Of a stretch of 21,434 nucleotides of DNA, positions 2,001 to 21,189 are shown one piece after another (the stretch's first letter is position 1; each line of letters begins with the position of its first letter). The translations under genes and the position numbers were made by a program. The notes under the pieces were generated by a model, which searched no databases, had not been told where the DNA came from, and worked only from the letters and a program-made list of their open reading frames with translations. The DNA is from a virus (Duplodnaviria > Heunggongvirae > Uroviricota > Caudoviricetes), in IMG/VR virus record IMGVR_UViG_2695420514_000017, positions 1-21,434 of that record; one strand, given 5' to 3'.

Positions 2001-4241
2001 TTAATCGGCAAGACCAAAGTTTCCGCGTTTGATGACGCTTGTAGCAAACCCTAGTATGGCTGTTGTTACTGTTGAAGCATCAAAATGATTTCCGATAATA
2101 ATGGCGTTTTCTGTGTTGTTTCCACTAAACCCTCTGACAGCATTGTATATGGTATTACCATTAAACAACTTACTCCCTCCTAGTGTCGCGATATCAACGG
2201 CAGAGCCTTGAAGTCTTATAGTTGTCGATGTTCCTGATAATACACAGTTGCTTATTTTAAAACTCCTAAAGTCCTTGTTAGGCTTCTCCTGCTTTATTGC
2301 ATATGACAATGCAGTTGCCGCAGTTGTTCCAGTGTCCTGGATAGTTACTCCGTCAATGACTATCTCATCAAAATCTAGTATCCTTGCTCCTATTTTTGTT
2401 GTCCCAGAATTTAGGTTGCTTCCCTTTCTGTAGTTGATATCCTTGATAATCATCCTGTTTGTTGCGTACGTGACAGATTTTGCTTGAGAATAAATTAGAT
2501 TAGGTGCATCTCCAGTAAGGTAACCAGAGATGGAAAAGTCACCAACAGAACTTTGCACATAGAATACAAAGTCATATAGGCCTGATACATTAAATAATGT
2601 AATTCCGTTAATTCTGAAGTCCTGCGTCATTCCTATGCGCATTAGGGAGTCTGTAGTTCTGACTGTTGTATTTGGTATTCTGGCAGTCCCGTAACAGTCT
2701 ATATTATTAATTGAAAGGCCGACGACACCATTGGTTCCATCCAGAGAACGAGAGTGGATTGCTTCGCCGTAATTTCCATCTACTATACAATTTGATAAAA
2801 CTATATCGTTTATAGGGACACCAATCGCTCCAAAATAAAATCCACTGCATATCCCAGTTGGTGCTGTTTGACCAGTAGGAAGATTATCTATTGGAGGATT
2901 GTTCTTCGATGATGTGCACCTGTCGAAGTAAAATCCTCGTTGAACAAATCCTGAAGGTACAGATGTGTAATCGTGCCCATGTAAATTAAAACCAAAACCA
3001 CAGTTTGCTATAGCCTTGCAGTTCCTGAATGTGAGTCCAGATACCGGAACATCTGTAACTTTAAAACCACTGCAACTTTCAGTTGTCATCGTTCCTGGGC
3101 TAGGCATGAATGGTATCCCATTCTCTTCAGCGATGCATGATTCTAATAGAAGGTTGTCAATACCAAAATCCTCTGCGACACCACTTGTAACAGATGCGAT
3201 CCTAAATCCATCGTTATTTCTATATGAATAACAGTTTATTACTGTTGAGTCTTTAGCCCCTGTAATAAACAGCGGGTAAACCATTCCAAGACCTTTCATC
3301 CCTTCACAATAGAATCCAGATACCTGCCTGGTGGTACCAACCCTTATCCCTATAGCAATTTTAGGCTCCCTCTCTCCTTGGCTTCTAGACTCACCATCAA
3401 TAGTGAACTCTCCAAGTAATGACACGTTATCCTCATTAATTATGAAGTATTCGTGAGTATCAGCAGTTCCATCTGATTTGAATATGGCGTTATCGAACCT
3501 GAGTGACTGACCTTTCTTTAAAGAATGAAGACCCGTTGAAAGATATGTTCCGCTAGGAAAAAAAATTGAAGCATCATCTCCAGATGAGTTGATTAGGTTA
3601 TTAATTTCATTAGTGCTTGAGACGACACCGTGTGGATTGACTCCGAACCACAGAGCATTTATTTCTCCTTCATACAGCCTCTTCCAGCGTCTATTCAAGG
3701 AATCAACTAAAATTGTCCCATCGTTGTCAGCACTAACTGCATCTGAATCATCACGATAAAAGATGCCGTCAGCACCATCAAATGGCGATAATCGCCCGAA
3801 ACAATATATGTGGTCAAGTTGACCATTATACTCCCTTATTTGATTATATAATGCTCCACCTACATACCCAAAGCCATAGAAATCTCCTACTAATGTTCTA
3901 AACTGGTCTGGATTATACTTCAGAACATTCGGAAAATAGAACTGCTGCGCACCGTACGCATCATAAACAGCCATAGAGTGGCCTTGCACAGTTACGAACT
4001 TGGCAATCTGTCCGTTATATACCGGATATCCGGCAGCGTTAATGATGATTGGTTGCGAAACAGGAACGTGAGAACCGTCTTCGTTCTCCACATAAACCTG
4101 AATCTGGTTTTCAGGATTTACAGGGTCAGTGTCAATTTTACCGATATAAATTTTGCCATTGGCTACGGCTTTAAAAGAACGAGCCATAGTGAAGAGTTGC
4201 GAAGGCATGCTTACCACAACATTTGCGGTGATATCTGTCAT
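2001..4241 (-). CDS. Tailspike protein: P22 gp9-like N-terminal head-binding domain plus a divergent receptor-binding/depolymerase body
   Basis: 746 aa. The first ~115 aa ([34 protein letters not shown]...[13 protein letters not shown]...NVLKYNPDQ) closely match the P22/Sf6 tailspike head-binding domain as I recall it. The remainder is G/N/S/T-rich, typical of a beta-helix, and does not resemble the P22 endorhamnosidase body from memory. Minus-strand GGAG lies 9 nt upstream of the ATG. Confidence 0.9.
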
Positions 4242-4341: not shown

Positions 4342-5220
4342 TCAGTAGTTATGTACTGAAGGAGGTAATTCTTTATTCTTAAGTCTCATCCATGCGGAAA
4401 GATTCGTTGGTCCGTCTGGCTCATTGATATCAACATCTCGTGTGTGATTGATTAAAACGTCCCTCGCCATTCCGATAACATACGAGAACTCATGACCGTA
4501 GTCGTAGCATCTGCCGGAATAGTTCGATTGAATTTGTTTTAATGCCGGATACAGTTCGCGGAATAATGCCTGTGAGCGATTGGCATAATCCCATAACCAT
4601 ACAAGGCTGTTTGCTTCTTTTGCAGAAAGCTCGTTGACTTTCCTCTCTTGTTTGCCGATAAACTCGCCTTCAAGCACTACCCTGTGGATGTACTCTACGG
4701 CCAGCGGGATTTGTTCAATTGAAAGTTCATCAATGCTGTCAATACCAAAACGCTGATGAACCATATTGTATGCATCGTCATAGCGAAGTCCTTTCTTTCC
4801 TACCAGCATGTTTACTGCATCGCGTAGCGGTGTTCTTTCCTCAACAGTGGTTTTCTTGCCTTTCACATACTCTCCATGTTTGCGAATCGAAGGCAGAACT
4901 TCTGCTGTTACCCACTTGCGGAATTTGTGCGGGACTGAACCTTTATTGACAGCATCGCGGCAGCGCAGAACCAATGTATACATACCTGATTCGCTAACAA
5001 TGCTTAGATTCTGCTCACCACCAAGGGTGTAACTTAAAGTTACTCCCTTTTCATCGTCATCAAGTGCAGTAAGCGCCTTGCGTGAGTTAGTCAAAGATAA
5101 AGCATCACAAACATCTTTAGCTACAAACCACGGCTCACCGCACTTGTTGATGACGCGGATTTCACTGTCGCCGAATTTGAAGATGGTGAAATCGTTTTGT
5201 GCCTTTGCTATACTTTTCAT
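4342..5220 (-). CDS. ant: Antirepressor Ant (Bro-N domain protein)
   Basis: 292 aa. N-terminal Bro-N-like motif ([28 protein letters not shown]...RLDDDEKG...[17 protein letters not shown]) resembles P22 Ant as recalled. Position directly downstream of arc matches immI. Confidence 0.85.
5186..5214 (+). promoter_or_regulatory. Candidate Psar: extended -10 promoter inside the 5' end of ant, reading antisense
   Basis: TGcTATACT at 5206-5214 fits the extended -10 pattern (TGnTATAAT). Weak -35-like GTGAAA at 5186-5191 with a 17 bp spacer. Predicted start near 5221-5223, just past the ant start codon on the opposite strand. Confidence 0.4.
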
Positions 5221-5544: not shown

Positions 5545-5781
5545 ATGTCACGCGAAGAGCCGCAAATAAATATCAGGATTTCCAAAGAGTTAAAGGCAAA
5601 GGTTAAAGCCAGGGCGCAACATAACAAGCGTTCCATGAATGCTGAAATAATACAGATTATCGAAGATGCTGTTTGTGGTAGATCGCTTAATAGCAATGAA
5701 TTTGCTCAGAAAGAGGCTGACAAATTCAGGGATGCGCTGCTTGAAACACTGAAAACCATGTATGGTAAGGATGCAAAATGA
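5545..5781 (+). CDS. mnt: Mnt repressor (ribbon-helix-helix maintenance repressor)
   Basis: 78 aa. INIRISKELKAKVKARAQHNKRSMNAEIIQIIEDAV aligns with P22 Mnt (FNFRMPMEVREKLKFRAEANGRSMNSELLQIVQDAL) as recalled. GGAGG RBS 4 nt before the ATG. Divergent from arc. Confidence 0.85.
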   Translation: MSREEPQINIRISKELKAKVKARAQHNKRSMNAEIIQIIEDAVCGRSLNSNEFAQKEADKFRDALLETLKTMYGKDAK

Positions 5782-5987
5782 ATAAAAAACAGTTTATTAA
5801 GTCAAAAACGTCAAGCAAGGAAGAGCTAGAGAAAGAGCTAAACTCCCTGAAATACGCTCTGTGTCTGGTTTACTCAAGACTGCCAATGGAAGATAAAAAC
5901 GCTATTTACAATGAAATGATTAGCAGCCTTGATTTTAACGATAGAGACCTTGCATCCCACCTCAACAGCTTCCGCGTCCCTGAGTAA
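5778..5987 (+). CDS. Hypothetical 69 aa protein translationally coupled to mnt
   Basis: The ATG at 5778-5780 overlaps the mnt stop (ATGA). Hydrophilic, predicted helical (KEELEKELNSLKYAL). No family recognised. Confidence 0.55.
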   Translation: MNKKQFIKSKTSSKEELEKELNSLKYALCLVYSRLPMEDKNAIYNEMISSLDFNDRDLASHLNSFRVPE

Positions 5988-6147
5988 TTCTGTTGCGGAT
6001 TTGCTTCTTGCGGTGGTTTAGGCTGGAGAGCTTGGCTTCTGCTTCCGATATTTGCGCATCTAGATCTTTAAGCTCAAGATCTGAAAGTCGCTGGTCAAGC
6101 AGGGTTTGGTTTAACTCAATGTTGTTCAGGCGTTCTTCTATGGTCAT
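5962..6147 (-). CDS. Hypothetical small coiled-coil protein (61 aa from the second ATG)
   Basis: MTIEERLNNIELNQTLLDQRLSDLELKDLDAQISEAEAKL shows heptad-like periodicity. AGGA lies about 8 nt upstream of the ATG at 6145-6147 on the minus strand. Convergent with, and overlapping by 26 bp, the 3' end of the preceding plus ORF, so it is uncertain. Confidence 0.4.
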   Translation of the reverse strand: MTIEERLNNIELNQTLLDQRLSDLELKDLDAQISEAEAKLSSLNHRKKQIRNRITQGRGSC

Positions 6148-6178
6148 AACTTTCATCCTATAACTATTTGGAATCAAA

Positions 6179-6361
6179 ATGAAAAATATATTAATTGGTT
6201 TCGTTTTTGGTGCAGCCTGCGCCGCCAGCATTAGCGTCATCGCCGCCCAGGTTGTTGGTGGTAACTCATATCTAATGGGCTATGACGTCATGATAAATGG
6301 AGAGGTTGTTTGCTCAGATCCTTATGTATGGACCTCGACAAAAGAAATAGAATGTGACTAA
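6179..6361 (+). CDS. Hypothetical small membrane-anchored or secreted peptide (60 aa) with two Cys in the C-terminal part
   Basis: Hydrophobic N-terminus [26 protein letters not shown] (signal peptide or single TM helix), then a 35 aa tail with two Cys (…[20 protein letters not shown]). Weak RBS (GGAA) but a clear intrinsic terminator immediately after the stop. Confidence 0.5.
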
Positions 6362-6363
6362 TA

Positions 6364-6389
6364 CCAGCCTGATGGCTGGTTAATTTTTT
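6364..6389 (+). terminator. Rho-independent terminator after the 60 aa peptide gene
   Basis: CCAGCC-tgat-GGCTGG hairpin (6364-6379) followed by TTAATTTTTT (6380-6389), 3 bp after the stop codon. Confidence 0.6.
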
Positions 6390-6406
6390 CATTTACCTGG
6401 GCCATA

Positions 6407-6437
6407 TTGACTACTTATAAAATGAGATCAATATTTA
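6407..6437 (+). promoter_or_regulatory. Possible promoter for the YjzC-like gene
   Basis: TTGACT at 6407-6412, with an AT-rich -10-like ATATTT/TATTTA about 18-19 bp downstream (6431-6437). The -10 assignment is weak. Confidence 0.3.
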
Positions 6438-6471
6438 ATCGCCCAATAACGGGTGTATGTTGAGGTATATC

Positions 6472-6651
6472 ATGGCGAAAAAACCAGGTGAAAACACAGG
6501 AAAAAACGGCGGAATATACCAAGAAGTTGGCCCGCGCGGCGGTAAGAAAGACAATTTTGCCACCGTCAAGGACAACGAAAGGCTTCCGCCAACAACAAAG
6601 CCAGGTCATGGCTGGGTATTAGATAAGCGAACTCCAGACAGCAAAAAGTAA
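6472..6651 (+). CDS. YjzC-like small protein (59 aa)
   Basis: MAKKPGENTGKNGGIYQEVGPRGGKKDNFATVKDNERLPPTTKPGHGWV follows the KPG...G.Y.E.G..G......V.....LP.T...G.W pattern I associate with the YjzC-like family. GAGG RBS 6 nt before the ATG at 6472. An upstream in-frame ATG at 6457 has a poorer RBS. Confidence 0.65.
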   Translation: MAKKPGENTGKNGGIYQEVGPRGGKKDNFATVKDNERLPPTTKPGHGWVLDKRTPDSKK

Positions 6652-6657
6652 TAATCA

Positions 6658-6680
6658 AGCCGGGTCACTCCGGCTTTTTG
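6658..6680 (+). terminator. Rho-independent terminator after the YjzC-like gene
   Basis: AGCCGG-gtcact-CCGGCT hairpin (6658-6675) followed by TTTT-G (6676-6680), 7 bp after the stop. The stop codon of the convergent minus-strand HExxH ORF lies inside the hairpin. Confidence 0.65.
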
Positions 6681-7030
6681 ATATGTCGCTCGCAGAACTC
6701 AACAAGCCTGCTCATTAAGTAGCAGTAAGTCTCGTTGGCTCTTCCTGGTTCAACATCAACACCGACCCTTGAGCAGATATCGAATGCCATGTGAGCGCAC
6801 TCATGGGCAATAGTAGATAGTTTGCCATTGAACACACCTATCACATGCAAAACACCATTCTCGCTGCTCATTGTATGAGACGCTCCGTTGGCATCCGAGT
6901 CCTGCACGTCCACGCCAAGTTTTTGATGCAGGCGTTGCCATTCTGGAAAGTCTCTGCAAAACACAATCGTACCGCTCTCAAAGAGCGGTACGAGCATCTT
7001 TGGTACGTTTCCAATGTTAACTTTTTTCAT
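6665..7030 (-). CDS. Hypothetical 121 aa protein with an HExxH motif (possible small zinc metallopeptidase-like or Zn-binding protein)
   Basis: From the ATG at 7028-7030 (AGGA 4 nt upstream on the minus strand): MKKVNIGNVPK...STIAHECAHMAFDICSRVGVDVEPGRANETYCYLMSRLVEF. HECAH with a downstream Glu and nearby Cys suggests metal binding. Sequence looks protein-like, unlike the overlapping N-terminal extension of the plus ORF. The ORF-track start at 7069 is a TTG. Confidence 0.5.
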   Translation of the reverse strand: MKKVNIGNVPKMLVPLFESGTIVFCRDFPEWQRLHQKLGVDVQDSDANGASHTMSSENGVLHVIGVFNGKLSTIAHECAHMAFDICSRVGVDVEPGRANETYCYLMSRLVEFCERHIKKPE

Positions 7031-7060
7031 GGTATCCTGCTCAAAACTAAGGAGGTTGGT

Positions 7061-7450
7061 GTGAAGCAATTTCTTGCTGCTATGTTCTTATTCATATCTT
7101 TTGGGGCTACAGCAGAGTGCTGGGTCGTTGGAGATATGCGCGGAATAAGCTATTCAGAACGCAATAATTTCCATCCGGTAGAAGATGGTTTTAGTGGAAC
7201 ATTCACCATTAAGACAAGCGGTGAAGATGCCAGCATCACATATTCTGGTACAGATGCGGGCGGCATGGCTTACAAAGCATTGTCTAAAAACTCCATCATA
7301 GGAATCGGCGCGAATGGCGAAACTCAACGCGTTATCGACTCATGGGTAATACATCCTACTGGAACAGTTTTAATGTCAAAAACCATTTCCGGTTATGGAA
7401 ATATGGATTCAACCAAAGCTTTTGTTGGAAAAGTAAAAAGAAAATGTTAG
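7061..7450 (+). CDS. Hypothetical secreted (periplasmic) protein, about 129 aa precursor, predicted Sec signal peptide
   Basis: Strong AAGGAGG RBS (7049-7055) 5 nt before an in-frame GTG at 7061. N-terminus MKQFLAAMFLFISFGATA|ECWVV has an n/h/c signal-peptide layout with an A-x-A cleavage site. Mature part is beta-rich (TFTIKTSGEDASITYSGTDAGG...) with Cys at both ends. The 72-codon upstream extension in the ORF track is antisense to the HExxH ORF and not credible. Confidence 0.6.
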   Translation: MKQFLAAMFLFISFGATAECWVVGDMRGISYSERNNFHPVEDGFSGTFTIKTSGEDASITYSGTDAGGMAYKALSKNSIIGIGANGETQRVIDSWVIHPTGTVLMSKTISGYGNMDSTKAFVGKVKRKC

Positions 7451-7474: not shown

Positions 7475-9385
7475 TTACTGCTGTGTTGCCTCAGTAGCAA
7501 ACAGCGGCCTGACGGCATTTGCAGCGTTACTTAACGCTCTTTCATAGGCTGGTGTTCCAGCTTTAGTGTTTGCCAGACGTAAGAGCGCATTCCTTGCTGC
7601 TTTGGACTCGTACAAGCGCATGATTGCACCGAAACCAGCCTCAAGTCCCAGTGATACACCAAGGGTTGCAGTTGCGCCAATCGTTCTAATCCTGTTAGCT
7701 TGCGATTGTCCTGTCTGTGTTACTACATTTGCGGCGTCCGACCTTGCTGTTTGCTGTAGAACTTCATGAAGAGCATCAAGCTCTTTCATGTGTCTCCCAC
7801 TGAATATAGTGTTATAGATCTGACCGTCAGATTGCGACTTCAACTTATTTAACTCGGTAAGAAATTTTGTTGGCGAGTCTCCTGCTTTTTCTGCAATCTT
7901 GCTGATATAAGCAGCACGCATAGCGTTCTTTCCATCTTCACTAAGAGCAGGCCATATCCTCTTAATATCTGATGGTTTTCTGCTGAATACAACGCTGTTT
8001 ATTAGCTCTGGAGTAAACTCTTTTTTAGCTTTGTTGAGATTATTCGCAATCCTTTTATTGAGAACTTTATTGAAGACGTTGGAGTAGTCAGAGTTTGCTT
8101 TGACGTATCTGGCGGCCTCTCCAGCCCCCAAATACCGCGCTGCGTTATTCCTCAAATCTGCCCCCATTGCCCTCTCCACGGCATCAGTTGCGGCTTTCGC
8201 GCTATTAGGAAAAACCATGGCATCTCCCTGAATACTTTCCCTCAAGGCTGACCGCAACTCTCTCAATAGACCAAAATCTATATCTGGTTTAGCAAGTTCT
8301 TCTCGCAAATCGGATAACCCGCGAATCAAATCCTTATTTGCCACTTTCCCAAGCCTGTTAGCTCTGGTAAGTACGTTGTCGATAACCTTAATAGATTTTG
8401 ATGTGTCAACAGGTGTGTCTCCCATTTTGGTTGTAATGTCTTCAATAACGCTTCCGGCCGAATCCTTCCTTGACTTCAGAGAACCATACAGATCGTCAAC
8501 AACAACTGATGGGCTATATTCACCATATTTCTCAAGCTGTTTTTTAACTAGCTGACTTCTTTTTGCATATTGCTCAGCTCGCTTTGAGCCTGTTCCCAGC
8601 AAAGCCCCCTCAGCATCCTGAGTAAGACCACGAGTGAAAGCATTTTTCGGCGGGATTACATCAGATGTCATTGGTGTCACGCCCATCGATTCTGATGTGG
8701 CAATTTTCTTCGCCACTTCTGGTGCAATATCACCTTTAAAGGCAGTTATTCCACGCTCAAGCCCTTTTGCAACAGTATTAACAGCACCACCTGTTAGCAT
8801 GCCAACACCTATATCTGTTGCCAGTTTTCCCGCATCATTTTTCTCACTGTTTGCGGCGAGCGATCCGACTGCGTTTTCTGCCAGAAGACGGGCTGCGCCT
8901 TGAGTAATTCGACCAGCAAGTGTTGGCGCCTGAGTTGAAGCGCCGCCAACGCCAACAGTAGCCAGGTAAGGCAATGCCTCCGCAAACACCCTACCTTCTG
9001 TCGTTTGTGGAGTCAGAGCACCTTGCTGAAGTCCAAACGCCTGCTCTAATCCCTGAGTTGTTACTCGTGGCGCTGGTTGATATGTTCCATCGCCAATACC
9101 GAGTTTACCGCCAGCCCATGCCGCCGCGCTTGTTACAGCATCGGCAACTGATGCTGGTATATTTGCCACATTTACACCAGCCTGCACCAGTCCGCGACCA
9201 GTTTCTTTTACTGCTTCGCCGAGGTCAGACATAAATCCATCTTGCTGTTCTACAGGCTGCTTTTGGTTTTGAGTTGGTTGATTACTGGAGGACAGAATCT
9301 GAGCGATGCGACGTGCTCCCTCAGTATCACCAGCAGCATCAGCATTCCTTAACGCCGTCATCAATTGTTCACGACTATAAGCCAT
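7475..9385 (-). CDS. Ejection (E) protein, P22 gp16 homolog
   Basis: 636 aa. Position, size and N-terminus ([29 protein letters not shown]) are consistent with P22 gp16. Its ATG overlaps the gp20 stop (TAATG). Confidence 0.9.
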   Translation of the reverse strand: MAYSREQLMTALRNADAAGDTEGARRIAQILSSSNQPTQNQKQPVEQQDGFMSDLGEAVKETGRGLVQAGVNVANIPASVADAVTSAAAWAGGKLGIGDGTYQPAPRVTTQGLEQAFGLQQGALTPQTTEGRVFAEALPYLATVGVGGASTQAPTLAGRITQGAARLLAENAVGSLAANSEKNDAGKLATDIGVGMLTGGAVNTVAKGLERGITAFKGDIAPEVAKKIATSESMGVTPMTSDVIPPKNAFTRGLTQDAEGALLGTGSKRAEQYAKRSQLVKKQLEKYGEYSPSVVVDDLYGSLKSRKDSAGSVIEDITTKMGDTPVDTSKSIKVIDNVLTRANRLGKVANKDLIRGLSDLREELAKPDIDFGLLRELRSALRESIQGDAMVFPNSAKAATDAVERAMGADLRNNAARYLGAGEAARYVKANSDYSNVFNKVLNKRIANNLNKAKKEFTPELINSVVFSRKPSDIKRIWPALSEDGKNAMRAAYISKIAEKAGDSPTKFLTELNKLKSQSDGQIYNTIFSGRHMKELDALHEVLQQTARSDAANVVTQTGQSQANRIRTIGATATLGVSLGLEAGFGAIMRLYESKAARNALLRLANTKAGTPAYERALSNAANAVRPLFATEATQQ

Positions 9386-14880: not shown

Positions 14881-16134
14881 TTACTGCCCGGCAATAACGA
14901 TGCCCGTATATTCAGGAACAAGTACAGAGCAACCGTACAGGGTGGTGAAACGCGCAGTGGTTACACCTTTGATGTGGTCGAAGGCGTAAGACATGATCAG
15001 CGTAGCGCCCTGCTCGGTGGTTGCTGTCATTACCTGTGGACCCTGACCAGTCGGGAACGCCAGTTTGCCGTACATCAGTTCAACAGAACCATCAGCCCAG
15101 AACAGGTTAGCCGGTGCGGCATTTTTGTTGAGAATGGTGATTGCTGCGCTACTTGCCGCATTAGCATCAACGTTTGCATATGGACGGCTGGCGACATCCG
15201 CGTTGTCAGGCGGCAGAATTTTCGGGGATATAGTTACTGTCGTTCCGCTAACTGCCAGAACGCGGAATACCTGCGGCTGCCCAGTGGTATCTTTGGTGAT
15301 CTGGTGTACGGAATTCACCCCTGCGATGGTAAACGCATCGCCAACCTGCAAACCTTCAGCAGATACCGTAATGGTCCCCTGTCGGTTATCCACTGGCATA
15401 TCGTTAGCATCTTTCGCTTCAACCTTGTGCGCAGGTGCTGCTGCCAGCGTAATGGGAGTTGCTGTACCCTTCGGAACACGACCGGAAATATCGGTCTTGT
15501 AGCTATCGAAGGACGCAACCGGAGGGATCTGCGCTTTTTCGTATGCTGTCAGGGTTGCGCCCTGAGCATAAGCACGGTGACCAAGCTCGCCAGCAAGGTC
15601 TTTATAGTTGAAGGGATTCCAGAAAGAGCGGCGGTTGATACCCTGTGGTACACCAATCGCCGTCATGGTGGCATCAATACCTGCCGCACAGTTCCACAAA
15701 TCACGGCCCTGTGAACCAGTGGTTGAGTCAGCCATTGTGATCACGTTAGTAGCACGCTGCGTGACCATGGAAATCAGGTCAGAGTCAATCTGTGCAGCAA
15801 GGCGCATACCTGCGGCGCGACCAGCTTCAGTTTTATGCTCAGGGTCACGCATTTCACGCGCATCCAGAGTGTACAGAATGTTTTTCGGCTCCTTGAACAC
15901 AGAAGGAACAAGGCGCTGAACCAGTGCTGTTGGCGTTTTGCCGCTGAGGTCTAGGCCTTCCTCAATGTTCATGTGGTAATGCTGCGGACGATACAGAACA
16001 TCACCTGCTCGCTGCATTGCTGTATCACCGGGACGGAATTTTTTAGCGTTACGGGAAACTACGCAGGCGGCCTCAAAGCCTTCAACGTAGTTTTCGAACA
16101 TGATTTCAAGGTCTTTTGCTAATTGGTTAGCCAT
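14881..16134 (-). CDS. Major capsid (coat) protein, P22 gp5-like
   Basis: 417 aa in the position after scaffold. Motifs such as ...NLFWADGSVELMYG resemble P22 coat (NVFWADDAIRIV) as recalled. GGAG RBS 8 nt upstream. Confidence 0.9.
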   Translation of the reverse strand: MANQLAKDLEIMFENYVEGFEAACVVSRNAKKFRPGDTAMQRAGDVLYRPQHYHMNIEEGLDLSGKTPTALVQRLVPSVFKEPKNILYTLDAREMRDPEHKTEAGRAAGMRLAAQIDSDLISMVTQRATNVITMADSTTGSQGRDLWNCAAGIDATMTAIGVPQGINRRSFWNPFNYKDLAGELGHRAYAQGATLTAYEKAQIPPVASFDSYKTDISGRVPKGTATPITLAAAPAHKVEAKDANDMPVDNRQGTITVSAEGLQVGDAFTIAGVNSVHQITKDTTGQPQVFRVLAVSGTTVTISPKILPPDNADVASRPYANVDANAASSAAITILNKNAAPANLFWADGSVELMYGKLAFPTGQGPQVMTATTEQGATLIMSYAFDHIKGVTTARFTTLYGCSVLVPEYTGIVIAGQ

Positions 16135-16152
16135 GCTTAATGCTCCGATAGG

Positions 16153-17046
16153 TTATTTTTTTGCCTTTTTAGCGGCGAAATACGGCGTCCAGTCACCAGT
16201 TTCCAGCGCCTTGGCTTTCAATTTGTCGAGGTTGTTGATTACTGCGCCGTTGCTCCCCTTAACTGTCGGGGTTGTGGCTGCCGTGGTTTTTGCTTTTGGC
16301 ATGATTCTGGCCTTCGATTCGATACGTTCCAGCAGACGACCAATTGCTACGGGGTTGGTAGCTTCTGCCAGTTGCTTGCGCAGTTCAGCGTTGCGACCGA
16401 GTGCCAGAACAACGATTTCCGGCTTCTCTGACTCAAACAGGATCGCGTTTTGTGTCTCGATGGGGATTTCCTCGAGTACGACCTGTTCAGCTTCCTGATA
16501 GCCAGGAACTTTGAGAGCCTTAACACGTTGCTGATATTTGGATAATCGCTCTTGATAGGCAGCCTGAAGCTCCTGCTCCTTCTGCTTGCGAGCCATCTCC
16601 TGTTGCTGGTACTTGCCGTTATCCTCTGCCCACTTAGCCATGCGTTGCTGGTAGATTTCTTCATCGAAACCGATGTCCTCATCATCCAGTTTTGGCATTC
16701 GCGGTGGTTGAGTGATTACCGGCTGCTGCTCGACGGGTTTCTGAGACTGACGCATCAGCTCTTTCAGCTCACGGTCTTTCTCTTTAATCGTCTTGCGCAG
16801 GTGTTTTACCAGTCCATGCTCTGCGCCATCTTCGCTGGTTGGCGAATCCAGCTTTTCGTCACCAAAGTAGAATTCCTGTTCTGATTCGTCGGCATCAGTT
16901 TCAGTATCTTCCTCTACATCATTGCCGGAGGACTCACTGCCATCTTCTGTTTCGACTTCTTCAGCCAGTTCGACATCATCAGGAATCTGCTCTGACGCGT
17001 CGGTTTCGATTTCAACTTCTGGTGTGTTTTCTGCCATCTGGTCCAT
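16153..17046 (-). CDS. Scaffolding protein, P22 gp8-like
   Basis: 297 aa with a highly acidic N-terminus (D/E-rich), a long charged coiled-coil middle and a basic C-terminal helix-rich end. Lies between portal and coat. Confidence 0.85.
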   Translation of the reverse strand: MDQMAENTPEVEIETDASEQIPDDVELAEEVETEDGSESSGNDVEEDTETDADESEQEFYFGDEKLDSPTSEDGAEHGLVKHLRKTIKEKDRELKELMRQSQKPVEQQPVITQPPRMPKLDDEDIGFDEEIYQQRMAKWAEDNGKYQQQEMARKQKEQELQAAYQERLSKYQQRVKALKVPGYQEAEQVVLEEIPIETQNAILFESEKPEIVVLALGRNAELRKQLAEATNPVAIGRLLERIESKARIMPKAKTTAATTPTVKGSNGAVINNLDKLKAKALETGDWTPYFAAKKAKK

Positions 17047-17136
17047 TTGTTACCCCTGTTTACTCGATGTTCAGCCCATCGGAAGGCAATAGGGTGCCAG
17101 GCCTCATAAAGACAGCCATTGCACGTTATGGGTTAA

Positions 17137-19335
17137 TTACTGCTGTGGTTGTTGCTGAGTTGATTTTTGCAGGATGCTGCTGATGTCCATGCGCTGCGCA
17201 TGACCCTGTGTCTGACTTTTCAGGACAAGCTCTGCATCAGCACGGGCATTGTCTCCTTGCTGTTGCTGGAACTGTCCGAGCAGTTTCAGAGCCTCGCGGA
17301 TATCAGATTTCTGCTGACTATCGGCAGATGCGAGTATTTTCACAACATTTGCCGCTGCAACCTGAGCATCAGTCTGTGCCTGGAATGCTTTAACCTGAAT
17401 GGCTGCCTGTTCGTTCTGCGCTTTCTGCAATTCAGCCTGACCAGCAAGAAGCTGACCTTGCGCTGCAACCATAGCCGGATCTGGCTGACTGGCCTGTTGT
17501 TGTTTCGCCTGTTCAACCATCTGCTGTTCTTCAGGCGTTCTCGGCTTGATAACGCCAGACAGAAGCAACTGATTGCGGTTGTATTCTTTCAGGTCGTCCA
17601 TCCCTTCGCCGTCCATATTGTCGAGAATCATCGACGATACAAGGTCGTGCTTCGGCGTTCCTGGTGGGATAAGTGCCAGCATGGAAAGTAACGACTTAAC
17701 CGTTGCATCACGGCGAGTAGCGAACGACTGACCGACATCGACAGTCACTTCATAGTTACCCTGCGAAAGGTCGTTAAGCGCGATAACCTGCCCCGTCTGA
17801 CGGTCAACCACTTCACCAGTCATCAGCGCCACGTCATCGCTGCCGTCCTCATTAACGATACGCATCGGCGTATCGCTGCCATAGACTTCACGCGCCATAG
17901 AAAGCCACACAACGCCAGCGCGACGCATAGATTTAGCCATGTTGTCCATGTAGATATAGGACTGCGTATCCATCCGGTTAAAGATGCTATCAACGGTATC
18001 GGTAGCGACGTTGCTCGGCATGTTCTCAAGCTGCGACGCACCTGTAATTTGCTGAATAGCCGTTCCGGTGTACTGCAATAGCCCGGCAAGAGCAGGAGGC
18101 ATTTGTGTCGGAGGTGTATAACTGCTGACCTGAGCCTGCGCAGTAATATCTCCGTTTTTGTTTTTCAGACTGACCATCGGCAGGAACGCCGGGCGCTTTT
18201 TGTTGCGCTCCGCCCAATGAGTGGCGAGAGGACCAGGAATCATGTCAACATCAACTACAGGAATGCCATCACCGCCAGCCTGAGTAGCGTTATCTGCAAT
18301 CATGGAAACCATCAGGTTCTCAAGACGCTGTGCATCCATCGCTTTTGCTGCGTGGCCTTCGATTCGCTCCTGATTATCAACAAATGATCGACGCCCATAT
18401 ACCGGGATGAGAGGAATATGTTCGCCCGGAATACGCTTCGGTTCTTCCAGCCATTCAGCGCCAGACAGAAGACCGCAATAAACTCGGCGTTTCTTCACTG
18501 TCCGCTCGCCAATCAGTTCGAATGCGCCATCGGTCAGCTCGTCAACAATATCTTTGATTTGCTCTTCATCATAGATTGCCGTTTCTCCGCTGACAGGATT
18601 GCGCCACGCCGTGAGCTTCACCTTCTCTATGCGAACTTCGTAGTAGCGTCCAACATAGATGGCATCAGGTGTTGACCAGTCATATTGAGTACCAGTGTCA
18701 TCACGAGGAAGACTTGCCGCGATGGAATCAGGGTATTCAGCCTCGAACGCTTTAGGCGTCATGGAGAACATTTCCATAGCCCACATAGCATCAGAGCGGT
18801 CATATTGCTTGCTGTCCTGATCGAAGAAGACGCATGTCGCCGGGTCGTAAACAGGAAGAAGACTGATGCGTCGCTGCTCGTTACTCGGATCCATTTCATC
18901 TTCGTAATCGGCACACATGCGGAAACAACCGAATCCACCCGTTACGGCATCATCAAATGCGTTATCACACGCTTCGCCACCGGATGTTTCCTGATAGTCA
19001 GCGCGGAATTTGCCGTTCATTTTTTCGGCTAACGCTTCCGATGCCTTATCGTCCTTCGGCCTGAATTTAACGCTGATGCGATTCTGTCGATACTCGCCAA
19101 TGATGCGATCACATTCACGGGCAATCTTATTCAGTTCAAAGCGCGGGTAATGCTCAAACCTGCCTTCATCAAATGAGTAACCAGCGTTTGTGCTGCCTTC
19201 CCACTGTGCGCCGGATACCCGGACGAAACGTTGAGCCTCAATAATCTGCTCACGCATATCCTGCGTTGCTGACCAGGCATTATCAAAGTTGCACAGCACC
19301 TTGCGATGCCAGTCAGTCATCTTTTTTTCTGCCAT
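17137..19335 (-). CDS. Portal protein, P22 gp1-like
   Basis: 732 aa, directly downstream of TerL. Long C-terminal helical Q/A-rich tail (…QAQTDAQVAAANVV…QQQPQQ) typical of the P22-type portal barrel. Confidence 0.9.
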   Translation of the reverse strand: MAEKKMTDWHRKVLCNFDNAWSATQDMREQIIEAQRFVRVSGAQWEGSTNAGYSFDEGRFEHYPRFELNKIARECDRIIGEYRQNRISVKFRPKDDKASEALAEKMNGKFRADYQETSGGEACDNAFDDAVTGGFGCFRMCADYEDEMDPSNEQRRISLLPVYDPATCVFFDQDSKQYDRSDAMWAMEMFSMTPKAFEAEYPDSIAASLPRDDTGTQYDWSTPDAIYVGRYYEVRIEKVKLTAWRNPVSGETAIYDEEQIKDIVDELTDGAFELIGERTVKKRRVYCGLLSGAEWLEEPKRIPGEHIPLIPVYGRRSFVDNQERIEGHAAKAMDAQRLENLMVSMIADNATQAGGDGIPVVDVDMIPGPLATHWAERNKKRPAFLPMVSLKNKNGDITAQAQVSSYTPPTQMPPALAGLLQYTGTAIQQITGASQLENMPSNVATDTVDSIFNRMDTQSYIYMDNMAKSMRRAGVVWLSMAREVYGSDTPMRIVNEDGSDDVALMTGEVVDRQTGQVIALNDLSQGNYEVTVDVGQSFATRRDATVKSLLSMLALIPPGTPKHDLVSSMILDNMDGEGMDDLKEYNRNQLLLSGVIKPRTPEEQQMVEQAKQQQASQPDPAMVAAQGQLLAGQAELQKAQNEQAAIQVKAFQAQTDAQVAAANVVKILASADSQQKSDIREALKLLGQFQQQQGDNARADAELVLKSQTQGHAQRMDISSILQKSTQQQPQQ

Positions 19336-19336
19336 A

Positions 19337-20752
19337 TCAACCTACACCACAAGGAATTGAGTAACTGGAATAGTCGGGTTGCGCAGCCGACTCCGGGCAA
19401 TGCATACACATCATCAGCGCATCAGCCAGGTTAGGAGATGGAATCCCGAGCTTCTGTTTCATTTCGACCTTAGTCATAAGCTCCAGCTTCCCGTTGTTAT
19501 TGAATTTGCGCTGAATCTGCGTCAGTTCTGCAAACAGCTTCTCCAGCATCTTCTCGCCTATCGCTTCTTTGTCGAAACTCAGCATGTCGTCTGGGTCTGC
19601 ATACTCACCGTGAAAAACCGCCCGATATGTCAGATACAGCCTGTCAGCCAGCGCGTAATAGCATTGCGCTCGCTTATTGCGGAATACATCGCCAATAGTG
19701 CGAACGTTGTCGCCCTGTACGACTTCATCAGCCCATGCTCCGGCCTGATACGGTGCATCTTCATCGAATGGCGATTCGCTGCCCTTGAACATCGTGGCGG
19801 TGATTTTCTTGCCGGAGAACGCTTCCGTTGTCTGTCTGCGTAGCCCGGCACCAACACCATCACCATCCCACAGGTAATGGTCAGCGCCGTCTTCAATCGC
19901 CAGCGAAGTAGCCCAGTCAGCACCCTCGTTGATGTCCATCAGCAGACCTTCGGCAATGCGCTTAACAACCGAACCGTGACGCGATGCATAACCTTTAGCA
20001 TCCGGCCCTGTATCTGACGGGTCATGTGCAGAAACAACAGCGCCTTTCGCTTTCCATCCTAGTTTCTTGTGCGCATCGGTTGCGGCTTCAAGCCATTCAC
20101 GTTTGATGATTGCCATATCACTTGCGCTCACTGGCTCACCAAGCCAGATGTGACGATACAGGGTCGGATTTCTGCGTTTACACTCTTCCATCTCCAGACG
20201 GAGAACTTCAGGAAAGTGCGGGTTGTCGGTGTAGTTCACCGTCAGCAGGCAAATATCATCTGGAGGATTTACGACGAATCGCTGATAGGTATCGTCGAGG
20301 ATGTTTTTCGGGTTAAAGCTCACCCATATTTCGGAAAATGGCTTGCGGATGGTTGGTATCAGGATATCCCATGATTCCTTCGTTACCGCTTCCGCTTCCT
20401 CCACCCAGCAGATATCAATGCCTTCGAGCGATTTAATCTTCGTCGGGTTGTTTTTGATGCCGTAGAACATGAACTCAGCATTCGTTCCGAGATGACGAAT
20501 CATTGAACGCTGAATTTCAAACTCAGCCGAATACCCTTCCCGCTCTATGGTGTCTTCAAGCAACCGAATTACCGAATCGCTGATACTGTTTTGCAGCTCA
20601 CGAGCGCAAAGTATGCGCACAGGCTGCCTACGCGCCGCTTCAACAAGCAGCCTCGCAATTGCCCATGACTTACCGCTACCTCGACCGCCTTTGGCGACTT
20701 TGTAGCGATGCGCCTCAATGAACGGTTCAAAGATAGGATTGATCGTGGTCAT
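19337..20752 (-). CDS. Terminase large subunit
   Basis: 471 aa. Walker A motif VAKGGRGSGKSW near the N-terminus. Overall sequence closely matches the Sf6-type large terminase as recalled. Start overlaps the TerS stop (ATGA). Confidence 0.95.
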   Translation of the reverse strand: MTTINPIFEPFIEAHRYKVAKGGRGSGKSWAIARLLVEAARRQPVRILCARELQNSISDSVIRLLEDTIEREGYSAEFEIQRSMIRHLGTNAEFMFYGIKNNPTKIKSLEGIDICWVEEAEAVTKESWDILIPTIRKPFSEIWVSFNPKNILDDTYQRFVVNPPDDICLLTVNYTDNPHFPEVLRLEMEECKRRNPTLYRHIWLGEPVSASDMAIIKREWLEAATDAHKKLGWKAKGAVVSAHDPSDTGPDAKGYASRHGSVVKRIAEGLLMDINEGADWATSLAIEDGADHYLWDGDGVGAGLRRQTTEAFSGKKITATMFKGSESPFDEDAPYQAGAWADEVVQGDNVRTIGDVFRNKRAQCYYALADRLYLTYRAVFHGEYADPDDMLSFDKEAIGEKMLEKLFAELTQIQRKFNNNGKLELMTKVEMKQKLGIPSPNLADALMMCMHCPESAAQPDYSSYSIPCGVG

Positions 20753-21189
20753 TTTCCGAATAGAGTGCTCATCGGTGATGTTTCAATCTGAATTGCGCCG
20801 CCGTCTTTGCCTGTTAGCTCATGATCAACCTTGTCGCGCCATTTATCCTTCTGTCGGTTCTTAAGCCAGAAGATGGCAGCTGTTGTATCAGGCGGGTAAT
20901 ACTTCTCAAGCGGAGTTTCGACAATTCTGTTTTCAATAACACGAATATCGATGTCTGGAGCCACGAAGCCCATAGCGCGTTGATAAAGACGATCACTAAC
21001 TTCTGCATCAGCGACGGCCTTACCCTTTTTTATGGACTCCGAAAACTTAGGATAATCAAGCTTCCACTTGTTAATAGTTGACTCACTGACTTCGAAGAAA
21101 TCAGCAAGCTCTGCATCGGTGTAGCCCAGCAAGCACAGTTTGCGTGCCTGTTCGGCATACGCCTCTTGATACTTTGTTGGGCGCGCCAT
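20749..21189 (-). CDS. Terminase small subunit
   Basis: 146 aa immediately upstream of TerL. The C-terminal ELTGKDGGAIQIETSPMSTLFGK matches the Sf6-type TerS tail as recalled. The N-terminal region (MARPTKYQEAYAEQARKLCLLGYTDAELADFFEVSESTINKW) looks like a helix-turn-helix. Confidence 0.85.
   Translation of the reverse strand: MARPTKYQEAYAEQARKLCLLGYTDAELADFFEVSESTINKWKLDYPKFSESIKKGKAVADAEVSDRLYQRAMGFVAPDIDIRVIENRIVETPLEKYYPPDTTAAIFWLKNRQKDKWRDKVDHELTGKDGGAIQIETSPMSTLFGK

What the first reader, a model, noticed from the sequence alone, without database searches (positions are those of the whole stretch)
6665..7030. Small HExxH-motif protein divergent from the secreted-protein gene
The 121 aa protein contains ...TIAHECAHMAFDICSRVGVDVEPGRANETYCYL, an HExxH motif with a downstream Glu and flanking Cys, suggesting a compact zincin-like or zinc-binding fold. 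Small metallopeptidase-like proteins in mobile elements include ImmA/IrrE-type repressor-cleaving proteases and SprT-like proteins. Its start codon is only about 30 bp from the divergent secreted-protein gene, and its stop lies inside the YjzC terminator hairpin. Given the nearby Mnt/Arc/Ant circuit, a protease acting on a repressor or on a host factor is a testable idea.
Basis: partly seen in the sequence, partly recalled or inferred. Interest (0 to 1): 0.6.

Follow-up and report, generated by a model that had tools for sequence, protein, structure and literature searches.

The report
P22 hkcC: small zincin-like phage protein
The ORF is the long-known but uncharacterised gene hkcC of phage P22/HK620, and it belongs to a large, unclassified family of about 120-residue phage proteins that keep a thermolysin-style zinc-protease motif, so it is probably a tiny late-expressed metallopeptidase whose target is unknown.

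Summary
Window 6665..7030 (-) encodes a 121-aa protein with HECAH (residues 76-80) and E100. It is 100% identical to hkcC of P22 and HK620, a gene of unknown function in the 'ant moron'. It is a real gene: the family has at least 551 clusters at 50% identity, synonymous sites are saturated while dN is 0.30-0.66, and homologues sit in unrelated phage contexts.

HExxH is present in 170 of 177 homologues and E100 in 135 of 136. The His-to-Glu spacing of 20 and the GxxNE motif copy thermolysin. A confident AlphaFold model (pLDDT 93.8) has the zincin element order, with HExxH and Glu on the last two helices. No curated family or solved structure matches significantly, so metallopeptidase is a strong inference and not proven.

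It is not an ImmA/IrrE or SprT member. The repressor-protease idea is poorly supported: HK620 keeps hkcC with only remnants of mnt and ant, and most relatives sit just upstream of terminase genes. hkcC is co-oriented with the late operon and has no detected promoter of its own.

The close subfamily travels with the convergent gene orf59a as a two-gene cassette. Verdict: new member of a known kind, with modest interest.

The parts
6665..7030 (-). hkcC coding sequence (121 aa, ATG 7030 to TGA 6665..6667)
   Evidence: 100% aa identity to HK620 hkcC (NP_112089.1) and to P22. phrog_1365 at E=1.4e-39. Synonymous sites are saturated with dN 0.30-0.66 against 46-63% identical homologues.
7035..7038 (-). 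Shine-Dalgarno-like AGGA, 4 nt before the ATG
   Evidence: Read from the sequence.
6791..6805 (-). Codons for H76-E77-C78-A79-H80. Predicted: two zinc ligands and the general base.
   Evidence: CAT GAG TGC GCT CAC on the minus strand. HE..H in 170/177 homologues. Lies in predicted helix 71-88.
6719..6745 (-). Codons for G96-R-A-N99-E100-T-Y-C103-Y104: a GxxNE motif carrying the predicted third zinc ligand E100, plus Y104
   Evidence: E100 135/136, Y104 129/136, N99 104/136, C103 112/136. E100 opens predicted helix 100-117. Ungapped profile matches to thermolysin 135-180/181 put N99/E100 on N165/E166 (thermolysin numbering from my own knowledge).
6657..6676 (.). Bidirectional terminator hairpin shared by hkcC and orf59a. 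Its stem encodes the hkcC C-terminus KKPE*.
   Evidence: Terminator scan on both strands. Annotated as a bidirectional terminator in HK620 and as t mnt in P22-pbi. The same hairpin is present in L086 and a variant in L105.
6472..6651 (+). orf59a (59 aa, weak YjzC-like match), the convergent partner of hkcC in a conserved two-gene cassette
   Evidence: phrog_3202 at E=7e-31; PF14168 at E=0.0013, below the cut-off. Found convergent and adjacent to hkcC homologues of 46-63% identity in five other contexts.
6407..6435 (+). Sigma-70-like promoter TTGACT-17-AATATT upstream of orf59a
   Evidence: The same hexamers lie upstream of the orf59a homologues in L105 and L086, and a close variant in L103.
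6967..6993 (.). 27-nt perfect palindrome (12-bp stem) inside hkcC codons 13-21. On the hkcC sense strand it is followed by UUGUGUUUUG.
   Evidence: RNA fold -23.6 kcal/mol in the window against 0 to -12.6 in 15 diverged homologues, including one with the same VPLFESG peptide. Weaker palindromes occur at the same place in L103 and L105.
7000..7060 (+). Region equivalent to the putative P22 PsieA promoter and leader, lying in the first 31 nt of hkcC plus the 30-bp gap. It would drive whatever gene sits in the sieA slot.
   Evidence: The P22-pbi record places PsieA on the first 31 nt of hkcC. 85 bp upstream of sieA suffice for exclusion (PMC10883804). The block shared with P22 at 98% covers window 6363..7063.
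7061..7450 (+). Divergent gene in the sieA slot (129 aa, phrog_2651, N-terminal hydrophobic signal-like segment). A neighbour, not part of hkcC.
   Evidence: phrog_2651 at E=3e-60. Unrelated to HK620 hkcB. The slot holds sieA, hkcB, this gene or nothing recognised in 80 related loci.

Best explanation
The ORF is gene hkcC, an accessory gene of P22-like phages. It encodes a soluble, single-domain, zincin-type metalloenzyme of about 14 kDa, most probably a peptidase.

Inferred mechanism:
- H76 and H80 on the penultimate helix, and E100 at the start of the last helix, hold a zinc ion.
- E77 is the general base.
- The near-invariant Y104 occupies the position that Asp170 occupies in thermolysin.
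- The beta-hairpin before the active-site helix (residues 49-66) offers the edge strand on which a substrate would lie.

Expression: the gene has no detected promoter of its own and points the same way as the late operon. It should therefore be made late in lytic growth by antiterminated P-late transcripts that read through the ant moron.

Context: in the P22-type subfamily hkcC moves together with the convergent, separately promoted small gene orf59a, as a two-gene cassette sharing one bidirectional terminator. In this block the 5' end of hkcC also carries the putative promoter for the variable divergent gene (the sieA slot).

The substrate is unknown. Shown: gene identity, conservation, motif, predicted fold order, and context. 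Inferred: zinc binding, catalysis, and late-only expression.
For: Identity and reality of the gene:
- 100% identical to HK620 hkcC and to P22.
- 551 family clusters at E<=1e-3.
- dN 0.30-0.66 with saturated dS.

Motif:
- HE..H in 170/177 homologues, with a His-to-NE spacing of 20 in 108.
- E100 135/136, Y104 129/136, G49 135/136.
- Conservation of E77, and not only of the two histidines, argues for catalysis rather than a purely structural metal site.

Fold:
- AlphaFold2 with 136 sequences gives pLDDT 93.8 and pTM 0.87, and all five models agree. The elements are E11-13, E21-25, H28-37, E49-56, E59-66, H71-88, H100-117.

Similarity to known zincins:
- With the full-length family profile, all 11 weak PDB matches are zinc peptidases.
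- With the C-terminal sub-profile, 13 of 17 are zinc peptidases: neurolysin, thermolysin, HtpX, thimet oligopeptidase and peptidyl-Lys endopeptidase.
- Both profiles match thermolysin 135-180/181 without gaps.
- 33 of 136 members give sub-threshold SprT-like hits.

Late expression:
- hkcC always follows gene 16 and points the same way in 80 loci.
- No sigma-70-like site lies upstream, and a terminator precedes it in L103.
- P-late polymerase transcribes through the ant moron (PMC2629481).
- Relatives lie immediately upstream of terminase genes.

Cassette.
Against: - No statistically significant match to any peptidase family or structure. Pfam, NCBIfam and PADLOC give nothing. The best PDB sequence E-value is 0.06. 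Foldseek finds nothing.
- I could not read model coordinates, so the His-His-Glu geometry is untested.
- DSSP puts E100 at the very first residue of its helix and H80 eight residues from the end of the previous one. This differs from thermolysin and could place the Glu off the metal site.
- Late-only expression is inferred from orientation and simple promoter scans, not from transcript data.
- No substrate is indicated by any result.
Confidence: 0.6

Rival explanations
1. SprT/Wss1/Spartan-like DNA-associated protease. HkcC would be a remote member of the SprT-like group that cleaves DNA-bound proteins, perhaps around genome packaging.
For: - SprT-like (PF10263) is the most frequent weak Pfam hit: 33/136 members, best E=1e-4.
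- hhalign against an E. coli SprT profile aligns 84 columns in the same order of elements.
- Several longer homologues carry lysine/arginine-rich C-terminal tails.
- The commonest family position is beside terminase genes.
Against: - All hits are below the Pfam cut-off of 25.6 bits.
- The hhalign probability is only 11.7%.
- The SprT alignment keeps a His (H95) after HExxH, which I take to be the third metal ligand (own knowledge). This family instead keeps a Glu at +20 and has no conserved downstream His.
- There is no zinc ribbon (PF17283), and the P22 protein has no basic tail.
Confidence: 0.12
2. ImmA/IrrE-type anti-repressor protease that cleaves Mnt, Arc, C2 or a host LexA/CI-like repressor.
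For: - Small HExxH-plus-Glu proteins of this kind exist in mobile elements.
- In P22 the gene lies 0.3 kb from mnt.
- Ant/Rha-like genes are neighbours in L086 and L098.
Against: - PF06114 does not appear among the families matched by the 136 members. The only trace is E=0.099 in one homologue.
- HK620 has an identical hkcC but only remnants of mnt and ant.
- The cassette occurs between tail genes and after replication genes with no adjacent repressor.
- The family also occurs in an N4-like Schitoviridae phage, a group I know as virulent (own knowledge).
- The orientation is that of the late operon, which is too late for a lysis-lysogeny switch.
Confidence: 0.05
3. Non-catalytic small protein. 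The zincin-like scaffold would be used only to bind a partner, for example as an inhibitor, an adaptor, or a partner of Orf59a, with no hydrolysis.
For: - No significant enzyme-family match.
- Conserved linkage to orf59a.
Against: The general-base Glu of HExxH and the distal Glu are as conserved as the histidines over 24-77% identity. This is hard to explain without catalysis.
Confidence: 0.1
4. Not a gene. The reading frame would be a by-product of the sieA-slot promoter, the terminator, or an overlapping plus-strand ORF (6845..7450).
For: - The P22-pbi record leaves it unannotated and places PsieA and t mnt on it.
- A 201-aa plus-strand ORF overlaps its 5' third.
Against: - 551 homologous clusters, many in unrelated genomic contexts.
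- Saturated dS with limited dN.
- A confident fold prediction.
- The plus-strand gene plausibly starts at GTG 7061 behind a strong SD, outside hkcC.
Confidence: 0.01

Closest known systems
hkcC of coliphage HK620 (NP_112089.1) and the same gene in Salmonella phage P22
   Same: Identical 121-aa protein. Same position after gene 16, same bidirectional terminator, same orf59a neighbour.
   Different: Nothing in the protein. In this window the divergent slot holds a phrog_2651 gene instead of sieA (P22) or hkcB (HK620), and the head genes are of the Sf101/Huey type. Both papers that name hkcC together with sieA list its function as unknown.
Thermolysin-type gluzincin active site (HExxH ... GxxNExxSD)
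   Same: HExxH, then Glu exactly 20 residues after the second His and preceded by GxxN. The profile aligns without gaps to thermolysin 135-180/181. Both motifs lie on consecutive helices.
   Different: E-values are only 0.6-1.6. The domain is about 120 residues against 316. The position Glu+4 is Tyr and not Asp. Helix boundaries differ. There is no significant 3D match.
Zincin-like metallopeptidase (MPTase) domains of phage and plasmid polyvalent proteins (Iyer et al. 2017, PMC5512222)
   Same: [quoted passage not shown] Phage-borne, often among late or virion genes.
   Different: HkcC is a stand-alone protein and is not fused to effector domains. No sequence link to those domains was tested here.
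SprT-like family (PF10263; E. coli SprT/YggI)
   Same: Size of the catalytic core and order of elements. The most frequent weak Pfam hit.
   Different: SprT keeps a His (H95) after HExxH where this family keeps Glu at +20. SprT has a C-terminal zinc ribbon. All scores are below the family threshold.
ImmA/IrrE (Peptidase_M78, PF06114)
   Same: Small HExxH-plus-Glu metallopeptidases of mobile elements.
   Different: No profile match. There is no adjacent cognate repressor. The late-operon orientation is wrong for a switch protease.

Membership tests
Zincin-like metallopeptidase superfamily (gluzincin type) | HExxH conserved across the family | tested here: met
   170/177 homologues. The exceptions are six truncated, frameshifted or chimeric sequences and one HKAAH.
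Zincin-like metallopeptidase superfamily (gluzincin type) | Conserved Glu on the helix after the HExxH helix (third metal ligand) | tested here: met
   E100 135/136. It opens predicted helix 100-117. The spacing of 20 is as in thermolysin. That it actually reaches the metal was not testable.
Zincin-like metallopeptidase superfamily (gluzincin type) | Core fold: beta-sheet, N-terminal helix, two C-terminal helices (definition from PMC5512222) | tested here: inconclusive
Zincin-like metallopeptidase superfamily (gluzincin type) | Significant sequence similarity to a curated peptidase family | tested here: not met
   No Pfam or NCBIfam hit. Best PDB profile E-value 0.06. SprT-like hits are sub-threshold only.
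Zincin-like metallopeptidase superfamily (gluzincin type) | Zinc binding and peptide-bond hydrolysis | not testable with these tools
   Needs purified protein.
ImmA/IrrE (Peptidase_M78) | Match to PF06114 | tested here: not met
   Absent from the families matched by the 136 members. One homologue gives E=0.099, 12.9 bits against a cut-off of 22.
ImmA/IrrE (Peptidase_M78) | Encoded next to its cognate HTH repressor | tested here: not met
   The neighbours are gene 16, the sieA-slot gene, orf59a, terminase, tail or replication genes. HK620 lacks intact mnt and ant.
SprT-like (PF10263) | Score above the Pfam gathering cut-off | tested here: not met
   33/136 weak hits, best E=1e-4. For example, 15.7 bits against a cut-off of 25.6.
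SprT-like (PF10263) | Conserved His after HExxH (H95 in E. coli SprT; taken as the third ligand from my own knowledge) and a C-terminal zinc ribbon | tested here: not met
   The SprT alignment keeps H95 and a Cys cluster. The hkcC family keeps Glu at +20, has no conserved downstream His, and ends at residue 121.
SprT-like (PF10263) | Profile-profile similarity | tested here: inconclusive
   hhalign probability 11.7%, pairwise E=0.0026, 84 columns. The SprT profile was shallow (74-88% identity to the first sequence).
PHROG 1365 (phage proteins of unknown function) | Full-length profile match | tested here: met
   E=1.4e-39, residues 1-121 on profile positions 3-120 of 127.

The most novel reading that the evidence does not exclude
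HkcC and Orf59a form a mobile two-gene conflict module with opposite expression programmes. Orf59a would be made from its own promoter in the lysogen. The HkcC zincin would be made only by antiterminated late transcription, and would cleave Orf59a, or a host or rival-prophage defence protein that senses late phage proteins. This would make the hkcC family (at least 551 clusters, typically beside terminase genes) a new class of phage counter-defence or self-immunity proteases.
Probability: 0.12. Interest if true: 0.7.

Novelty: new member of a known kind. Interest (0 to 1): 0.35.

Why it matters
P22 is one of the best-studied phages, yet hkcC has been listed as function unknown since it was named.

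- Assigning it to a large, uncurated family of minimal zincin-like enzymes gives a concrete, mutable active site to test: H76, E77, H80, E100.
- The block is carried by about 5% of complete E. coli genomes, and the exact protein is seen on more than 1000 contigs.
- If the enzyme has a defined target, either a host defence factor or the linked Orf59a, it would add a protease to the list of late-acting phage accessory functions.
- If it does not, it remains an ordinary moron gene.

Tried and rejected
- Pfam, NCBIfam and PADLOC scans of the protein gave nothing meaningful. The lantibiotic 'hits' are noise on the HEC string.
- A PDB sequence search with the shallow 19-sequence profile gave no hits.
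- The first AlphaFold model from 19 sequences was unstable: two models at pLDDT 83 and three near 53. It was replaced by the 136-sequence model.
- Foldseek against the PDB found nothing.
- The AFDB50 library was unavailable.
- Model coordinates are not exposed to scripts, so the metal-site geometry could not be measured.
- The search for related loci in IMG/VR returned only 99-100% identical copies. These were useful for mosaicism but not for function.
- The deep alignment was too diverse for a genome scan. A 31-sequence alignment worked.
- The divergent secreted-protein gene is not an hkcB homologue.
- Domain fusions in longer homologues gave no Pfam clue, only acidic or basic low-complexity tails.
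- Literature searches for hkcC, phrog_1365, YjzC and phage zincins gave no functional study.
- I considered peptide deformylase (HExxH plus Cys) and rejected it. The cysteines are not family-wide, and the deformylase motifs I know (GxGxAAxQ, EGCLS) are not visible in the sequence.

Full report
**What is there.** The minus strand of window 6665..7030 carries an ORF. The mechanical ORF list extends it to a TTG at 7069. The ATG is the better start because it has an AGGA four bases upstream and homologues begin there. HECAH is residues 76-80 and the downstream Glu is E100. The divergent gene starts at GTG 7061 behind TAAGGAGG, which leaves a 30-bp gap. The hkcC stop and its last codons lie in the hairpin 6657..6676 that also ends orf59a. 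All the factual statements of the finding are correct.

**Identity.** The protein is 100% identical to gene hkcC of coliphage HK620 and to the same reading frame in P22 and dozens of P22-like Salmonella and E. coli phages. HK620 annotates it as hkcC, a hypothetical protein, followed by a bidirectional terminator. The P22-pbi record leaves it unannotated and instead marks PsieA on its first 31 nt and t mnt at its end. The epsilon34 genome paper lists hkcC and 59a as the two genes of unknown function in the P22 'ant moron' (PMC2629481). A later P22-like genome paper also lists it as unknown (PMC4837284). RefSeq annotates it as a hypothetical protein. The 701-bp block is found in 284 of 5426 complete E. 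coli genomes, and the exact protein is seen on at least 1000 contigs. The window itself is a P22-like late operon on the minus strand, with Sf101/Huey-type head genes (portal 99%), gene 16 at 7475..9385, ant at 4342..5220 and a tailspike at 2001..4241.

**It is a real gene.**
- A profile search of 1.84 billion representative proteins found 551 clusters at E<=1e-3. Nearly all are stand-alone proteins of 110-130 residues.
- Against homologues of 46-63% identity, synonymous sites are saturated while dN is 0.30-0.66.
- Homologues occur in unrelated genomic settings (see the context sections below).
- The overlapping plus-strand ORF (6845..7450) is best read from GTG 7061, outside hkcC.

The antisense-artefact alternative is excluded.

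**The motif.** HE..H is present in 170 of 177 fetched family proteins. Of the seven exceptions, six are truncated, frameshifted or chimeric and one reads HKAAH. Conservation in a 136-sequence alignment at 24-77% identity to the window protein:

| Residue | Count (of 136) |
|---|---|
| E100 | 135 |
| G49 | 135 |
| Y104 | 129 |
| F67 | 123 |
| G90 | 123 |
| C103 | 112 |
| N99 | 104 |
| C86 | 47 |
| C78 | 45 |

The second His and the Glu are 20 residues apart in most members, and the Glu sits in a GxxNE context. From my own knowledge of thermolysin (H142, E143, H146, N165, E166), this is exactly the thermolysin arrangement. The tools agree: the family profile aligns to thermolysin residues 135-180 over 46 profile positions, and a C-terminal sub-profile aligns to 135-181 over 47. 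Both matches are ungapped, which superposes H/E/H and N/E on those residues. These matches are not significant on their own (E 0.6-1.6).

With the full-length profile, all 11 PDB sequences with E<=10 are zinc peptidases: myroilysin, BMP1/tolloid, peptidyl-Lys endopeptidase and thermolysin. With the sub-profile, 13 of 17 are: neurolysin, thermolysin, HtpX, thimet oligopeptidase and peptidyl-Lys endopeptidase. The other four are three engineered RNase A tandems and one hypothetical hydrolase.

**Family membership.** Pfam, NCBIfam and PADLOC have no model for the protein. PHROGs has phrog_1365, function unknown.
- ImmA/IrrE: across 136 members PF06114 does not appear among the matched families. 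One homologue gives E=0.099.
- SprT-like: this is the most frequent weak hit (33/136, best E=1e-4), but always below the cut-off.
- I built an E. coli SprT profile. hhalign aligns 84 columns in congruent order but with a probability of only 11.7%.
- SprT keeps a His (H95) after HExxH and a C-terminal Cys cluster. This family keeps a Glu at +20 and has neither.

HkcC is therefore best described as an unclassified minimal zincin with a gluzincin-type motif. It is not a member of M78 or SprT-like.

**Context in P22-like phages.** In 80 IMG/VR loci the protein is 99-100% identical. It always follows gene 16 in the same orientation. The divergent gene between them varies: sieA, hkcB, the phrog_2651 gene of this window, or nothing recognised. 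The immI genes downstream also vary. The DNA shared with P22 at 98% runs from 6363 to 7063. It includes orf59a, hkcC, the 30-bp gap, and the SD and start codon of the divergent gene. P22 annotation puts PsieA in the first 31 nt of hkcC, and 85 bp upstream of sieA are enough for exclusion (PMC10883804). The hkcC 5' end therefore doubles as the promoter region for whatever cargo sits in the sieA slot. This helps to explain the extreme DNA conservation of the block.

No sigma-70-like site precedes hkcC. [quoted passage not shown] HK620 keeps an identical hkcC although mnt and ant are only remnants. This argues against a dedicated role on Mnt, Arc or Ant.

**Context elsewhere.**
- The about 38%-identical paralogue (Orf129 of ST64T, L, epsilon34 and others) lies between the lysis cassette and the small terminase gene.
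- In species-representative genomes and metagenomic contigs, relatives most often lie immediately upstream of terS or terL, sometimes overlapping its start (L088, L090-L094, L100, L107, L110).
- Others lie between the major head and virion structural genes (L095), or after a MuF-like head-morphogenesis gene (L097).
- Others follow a helicase loader (L087), a DNA methyltransferase (L089) or ParB-like genes (L108).
- One is in an N4-like Pseudomonas phage.

About 82 of roughly 182 P22-like phage records carry a family member, so the gene is accessory and not core.

**A two-gene cassette.** Every hkcC homologue of 46-63% identity that I could inspect has an orf59a homologue (64-78% identical) convergent and within about 20 bp. 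These are:
- a Klebsiella oxytoca prophage, a Rosenbergiella prophage and a Xenorhabdus prophage, where the pair sits between the tail-chaperone region and the tape-measure gene;
- an Enterobacter locus;
- a Pasteurellaceae prophage.

The orf59a promoter-like TTGACT-17-AATATT and the shared hairpin are conserved too. In L103 a terminator lies just upstream of hkcC. The Orf129 subfamily lacks orf59a. About 15 of the 80 P22-like loci have another gene in its place, so the linkage is strong but not obligatory. This suggests, but does not show, a functional link between the late-transcribed zincin and the independently promoted small protein.

**Mechanism and confidence.** I put 0.6 on the statement that HkcC is a late-made, stand-alone zinc metallopeptidase-like enzyme with H76/H80/E100 as ligands and E77 as base. 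The strongest single argument is that both glutamates are as conserved as the histidines across a very diverse family. The substrate is unknown. Orf59a, host or prophage defence proteins, and DNA-bound proteins at packaging are guesses. The last is suggested by the weak SprT resemblance, the basic tails in some homologues and the position next to terminase genes.

**Novelty.** The gene is known, and the kind of protein (a minimal zincin) is known. What is new is the assignment of hkcC/phrog_1365 to that kind, the size of the family, and the hkcC-orf59a cassette. Interest is modest (0.35) unless a specific target is found.

Noticed in passing
window 6472..7030; L086, L087, L099, L103, L105 around 6000..6600: hkcC and the convergent orf59a (YjzC-like, 59 aa) form a conserved two-gene cassette with one bidirectional terminator. 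It is found in P22-likes and also between tail-chaperone and tape-measure genes of siphovirus-type prophages. orf59a is more conserved (64-78%) than hkcC (46-63%).
   Followed up: partly
window 6967..6993: A perfect 27-nt palindrome (12-bp stem, -23.6 kcal/mol) lies inside hkcC codons 13-21, just upstream of the putative PsieA region. On the hkcC sense strand it is followed by a U-rich tract. It is absent from diverged homologues, even one with the same VPLFESG peptide. It could be an attenuator for non-antiterminated transcripts or a protein-binding site.
   Followed up: partly
window 7000..7063 and 7061..7450: The block shared with P22 ends just after the SD and start codon of the divergent gene. 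sieA, hkcB and the phrog_2651 signal-peptide protein therefore appear to be interchangeable cargo behind one promoter and translation start that lie in or next to hkcC.
   Followed up: partly
window 6657..6676: The hkcC C-terminus KKPE* is encoded by the terminator stem. KKPE/KKPA-like endings recur in many homologues, so this tail may be shaped by the RNA hairpin and not by protein function.
   Followed up: no
window 6407..6435; L105 6591..6619; L086 6599..6627; L103 6601..6629: A promoter-like TTGACT-17-AATATT is conserved upstream of orf59a in four diverged contexts. This suggests that orf59a is an independently expressed moron gene, not only a passenger of the P22 mnt transcript.
   Followed up: partly
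P0065, P0068, P0116, P0133, P0149; L004 3001..3585: Longer family members (173-194 aa, e.g. coliphage mEp044) add an acidic stretch and a Lys/Arg-rich C-terminal tail, some ending in a VPRxxxFKRG-like motif. This may be nucleic-acid binding or a targeting signal.
   Followed up: no
window 5778..6361: Three more tiny ORFs with their own PHROGs lie between mnt and orf59a: 5778..5987 (+, 69 aa), 5962..6156 (-, 64 aa, coiled-coil-like, phrog_7586) and 6179..6361 (+, 60 aa, hydrophobic N-terminus, phrog_37095). They come and go among related loci.
   Followed up: no
window 14881..21189: The structural genes are of the Sf101/Huey/E212 type (portal 99% identical) and only about 35% identical to the P22 portal, while the hkcC-orf59a block is 98% identical to P22. 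This is a sharp mosaic boundary.
   Followed up: no
phage record AF217253.1 (original P22 sequence): tblastn gives only 71.9% identity to hkcC in the first P22 record, against 100% in later P22 records. This is probably due to sequence errors in the old entry, and may explain why hkcC was not annotated in P22 at first.
   Followed up: no
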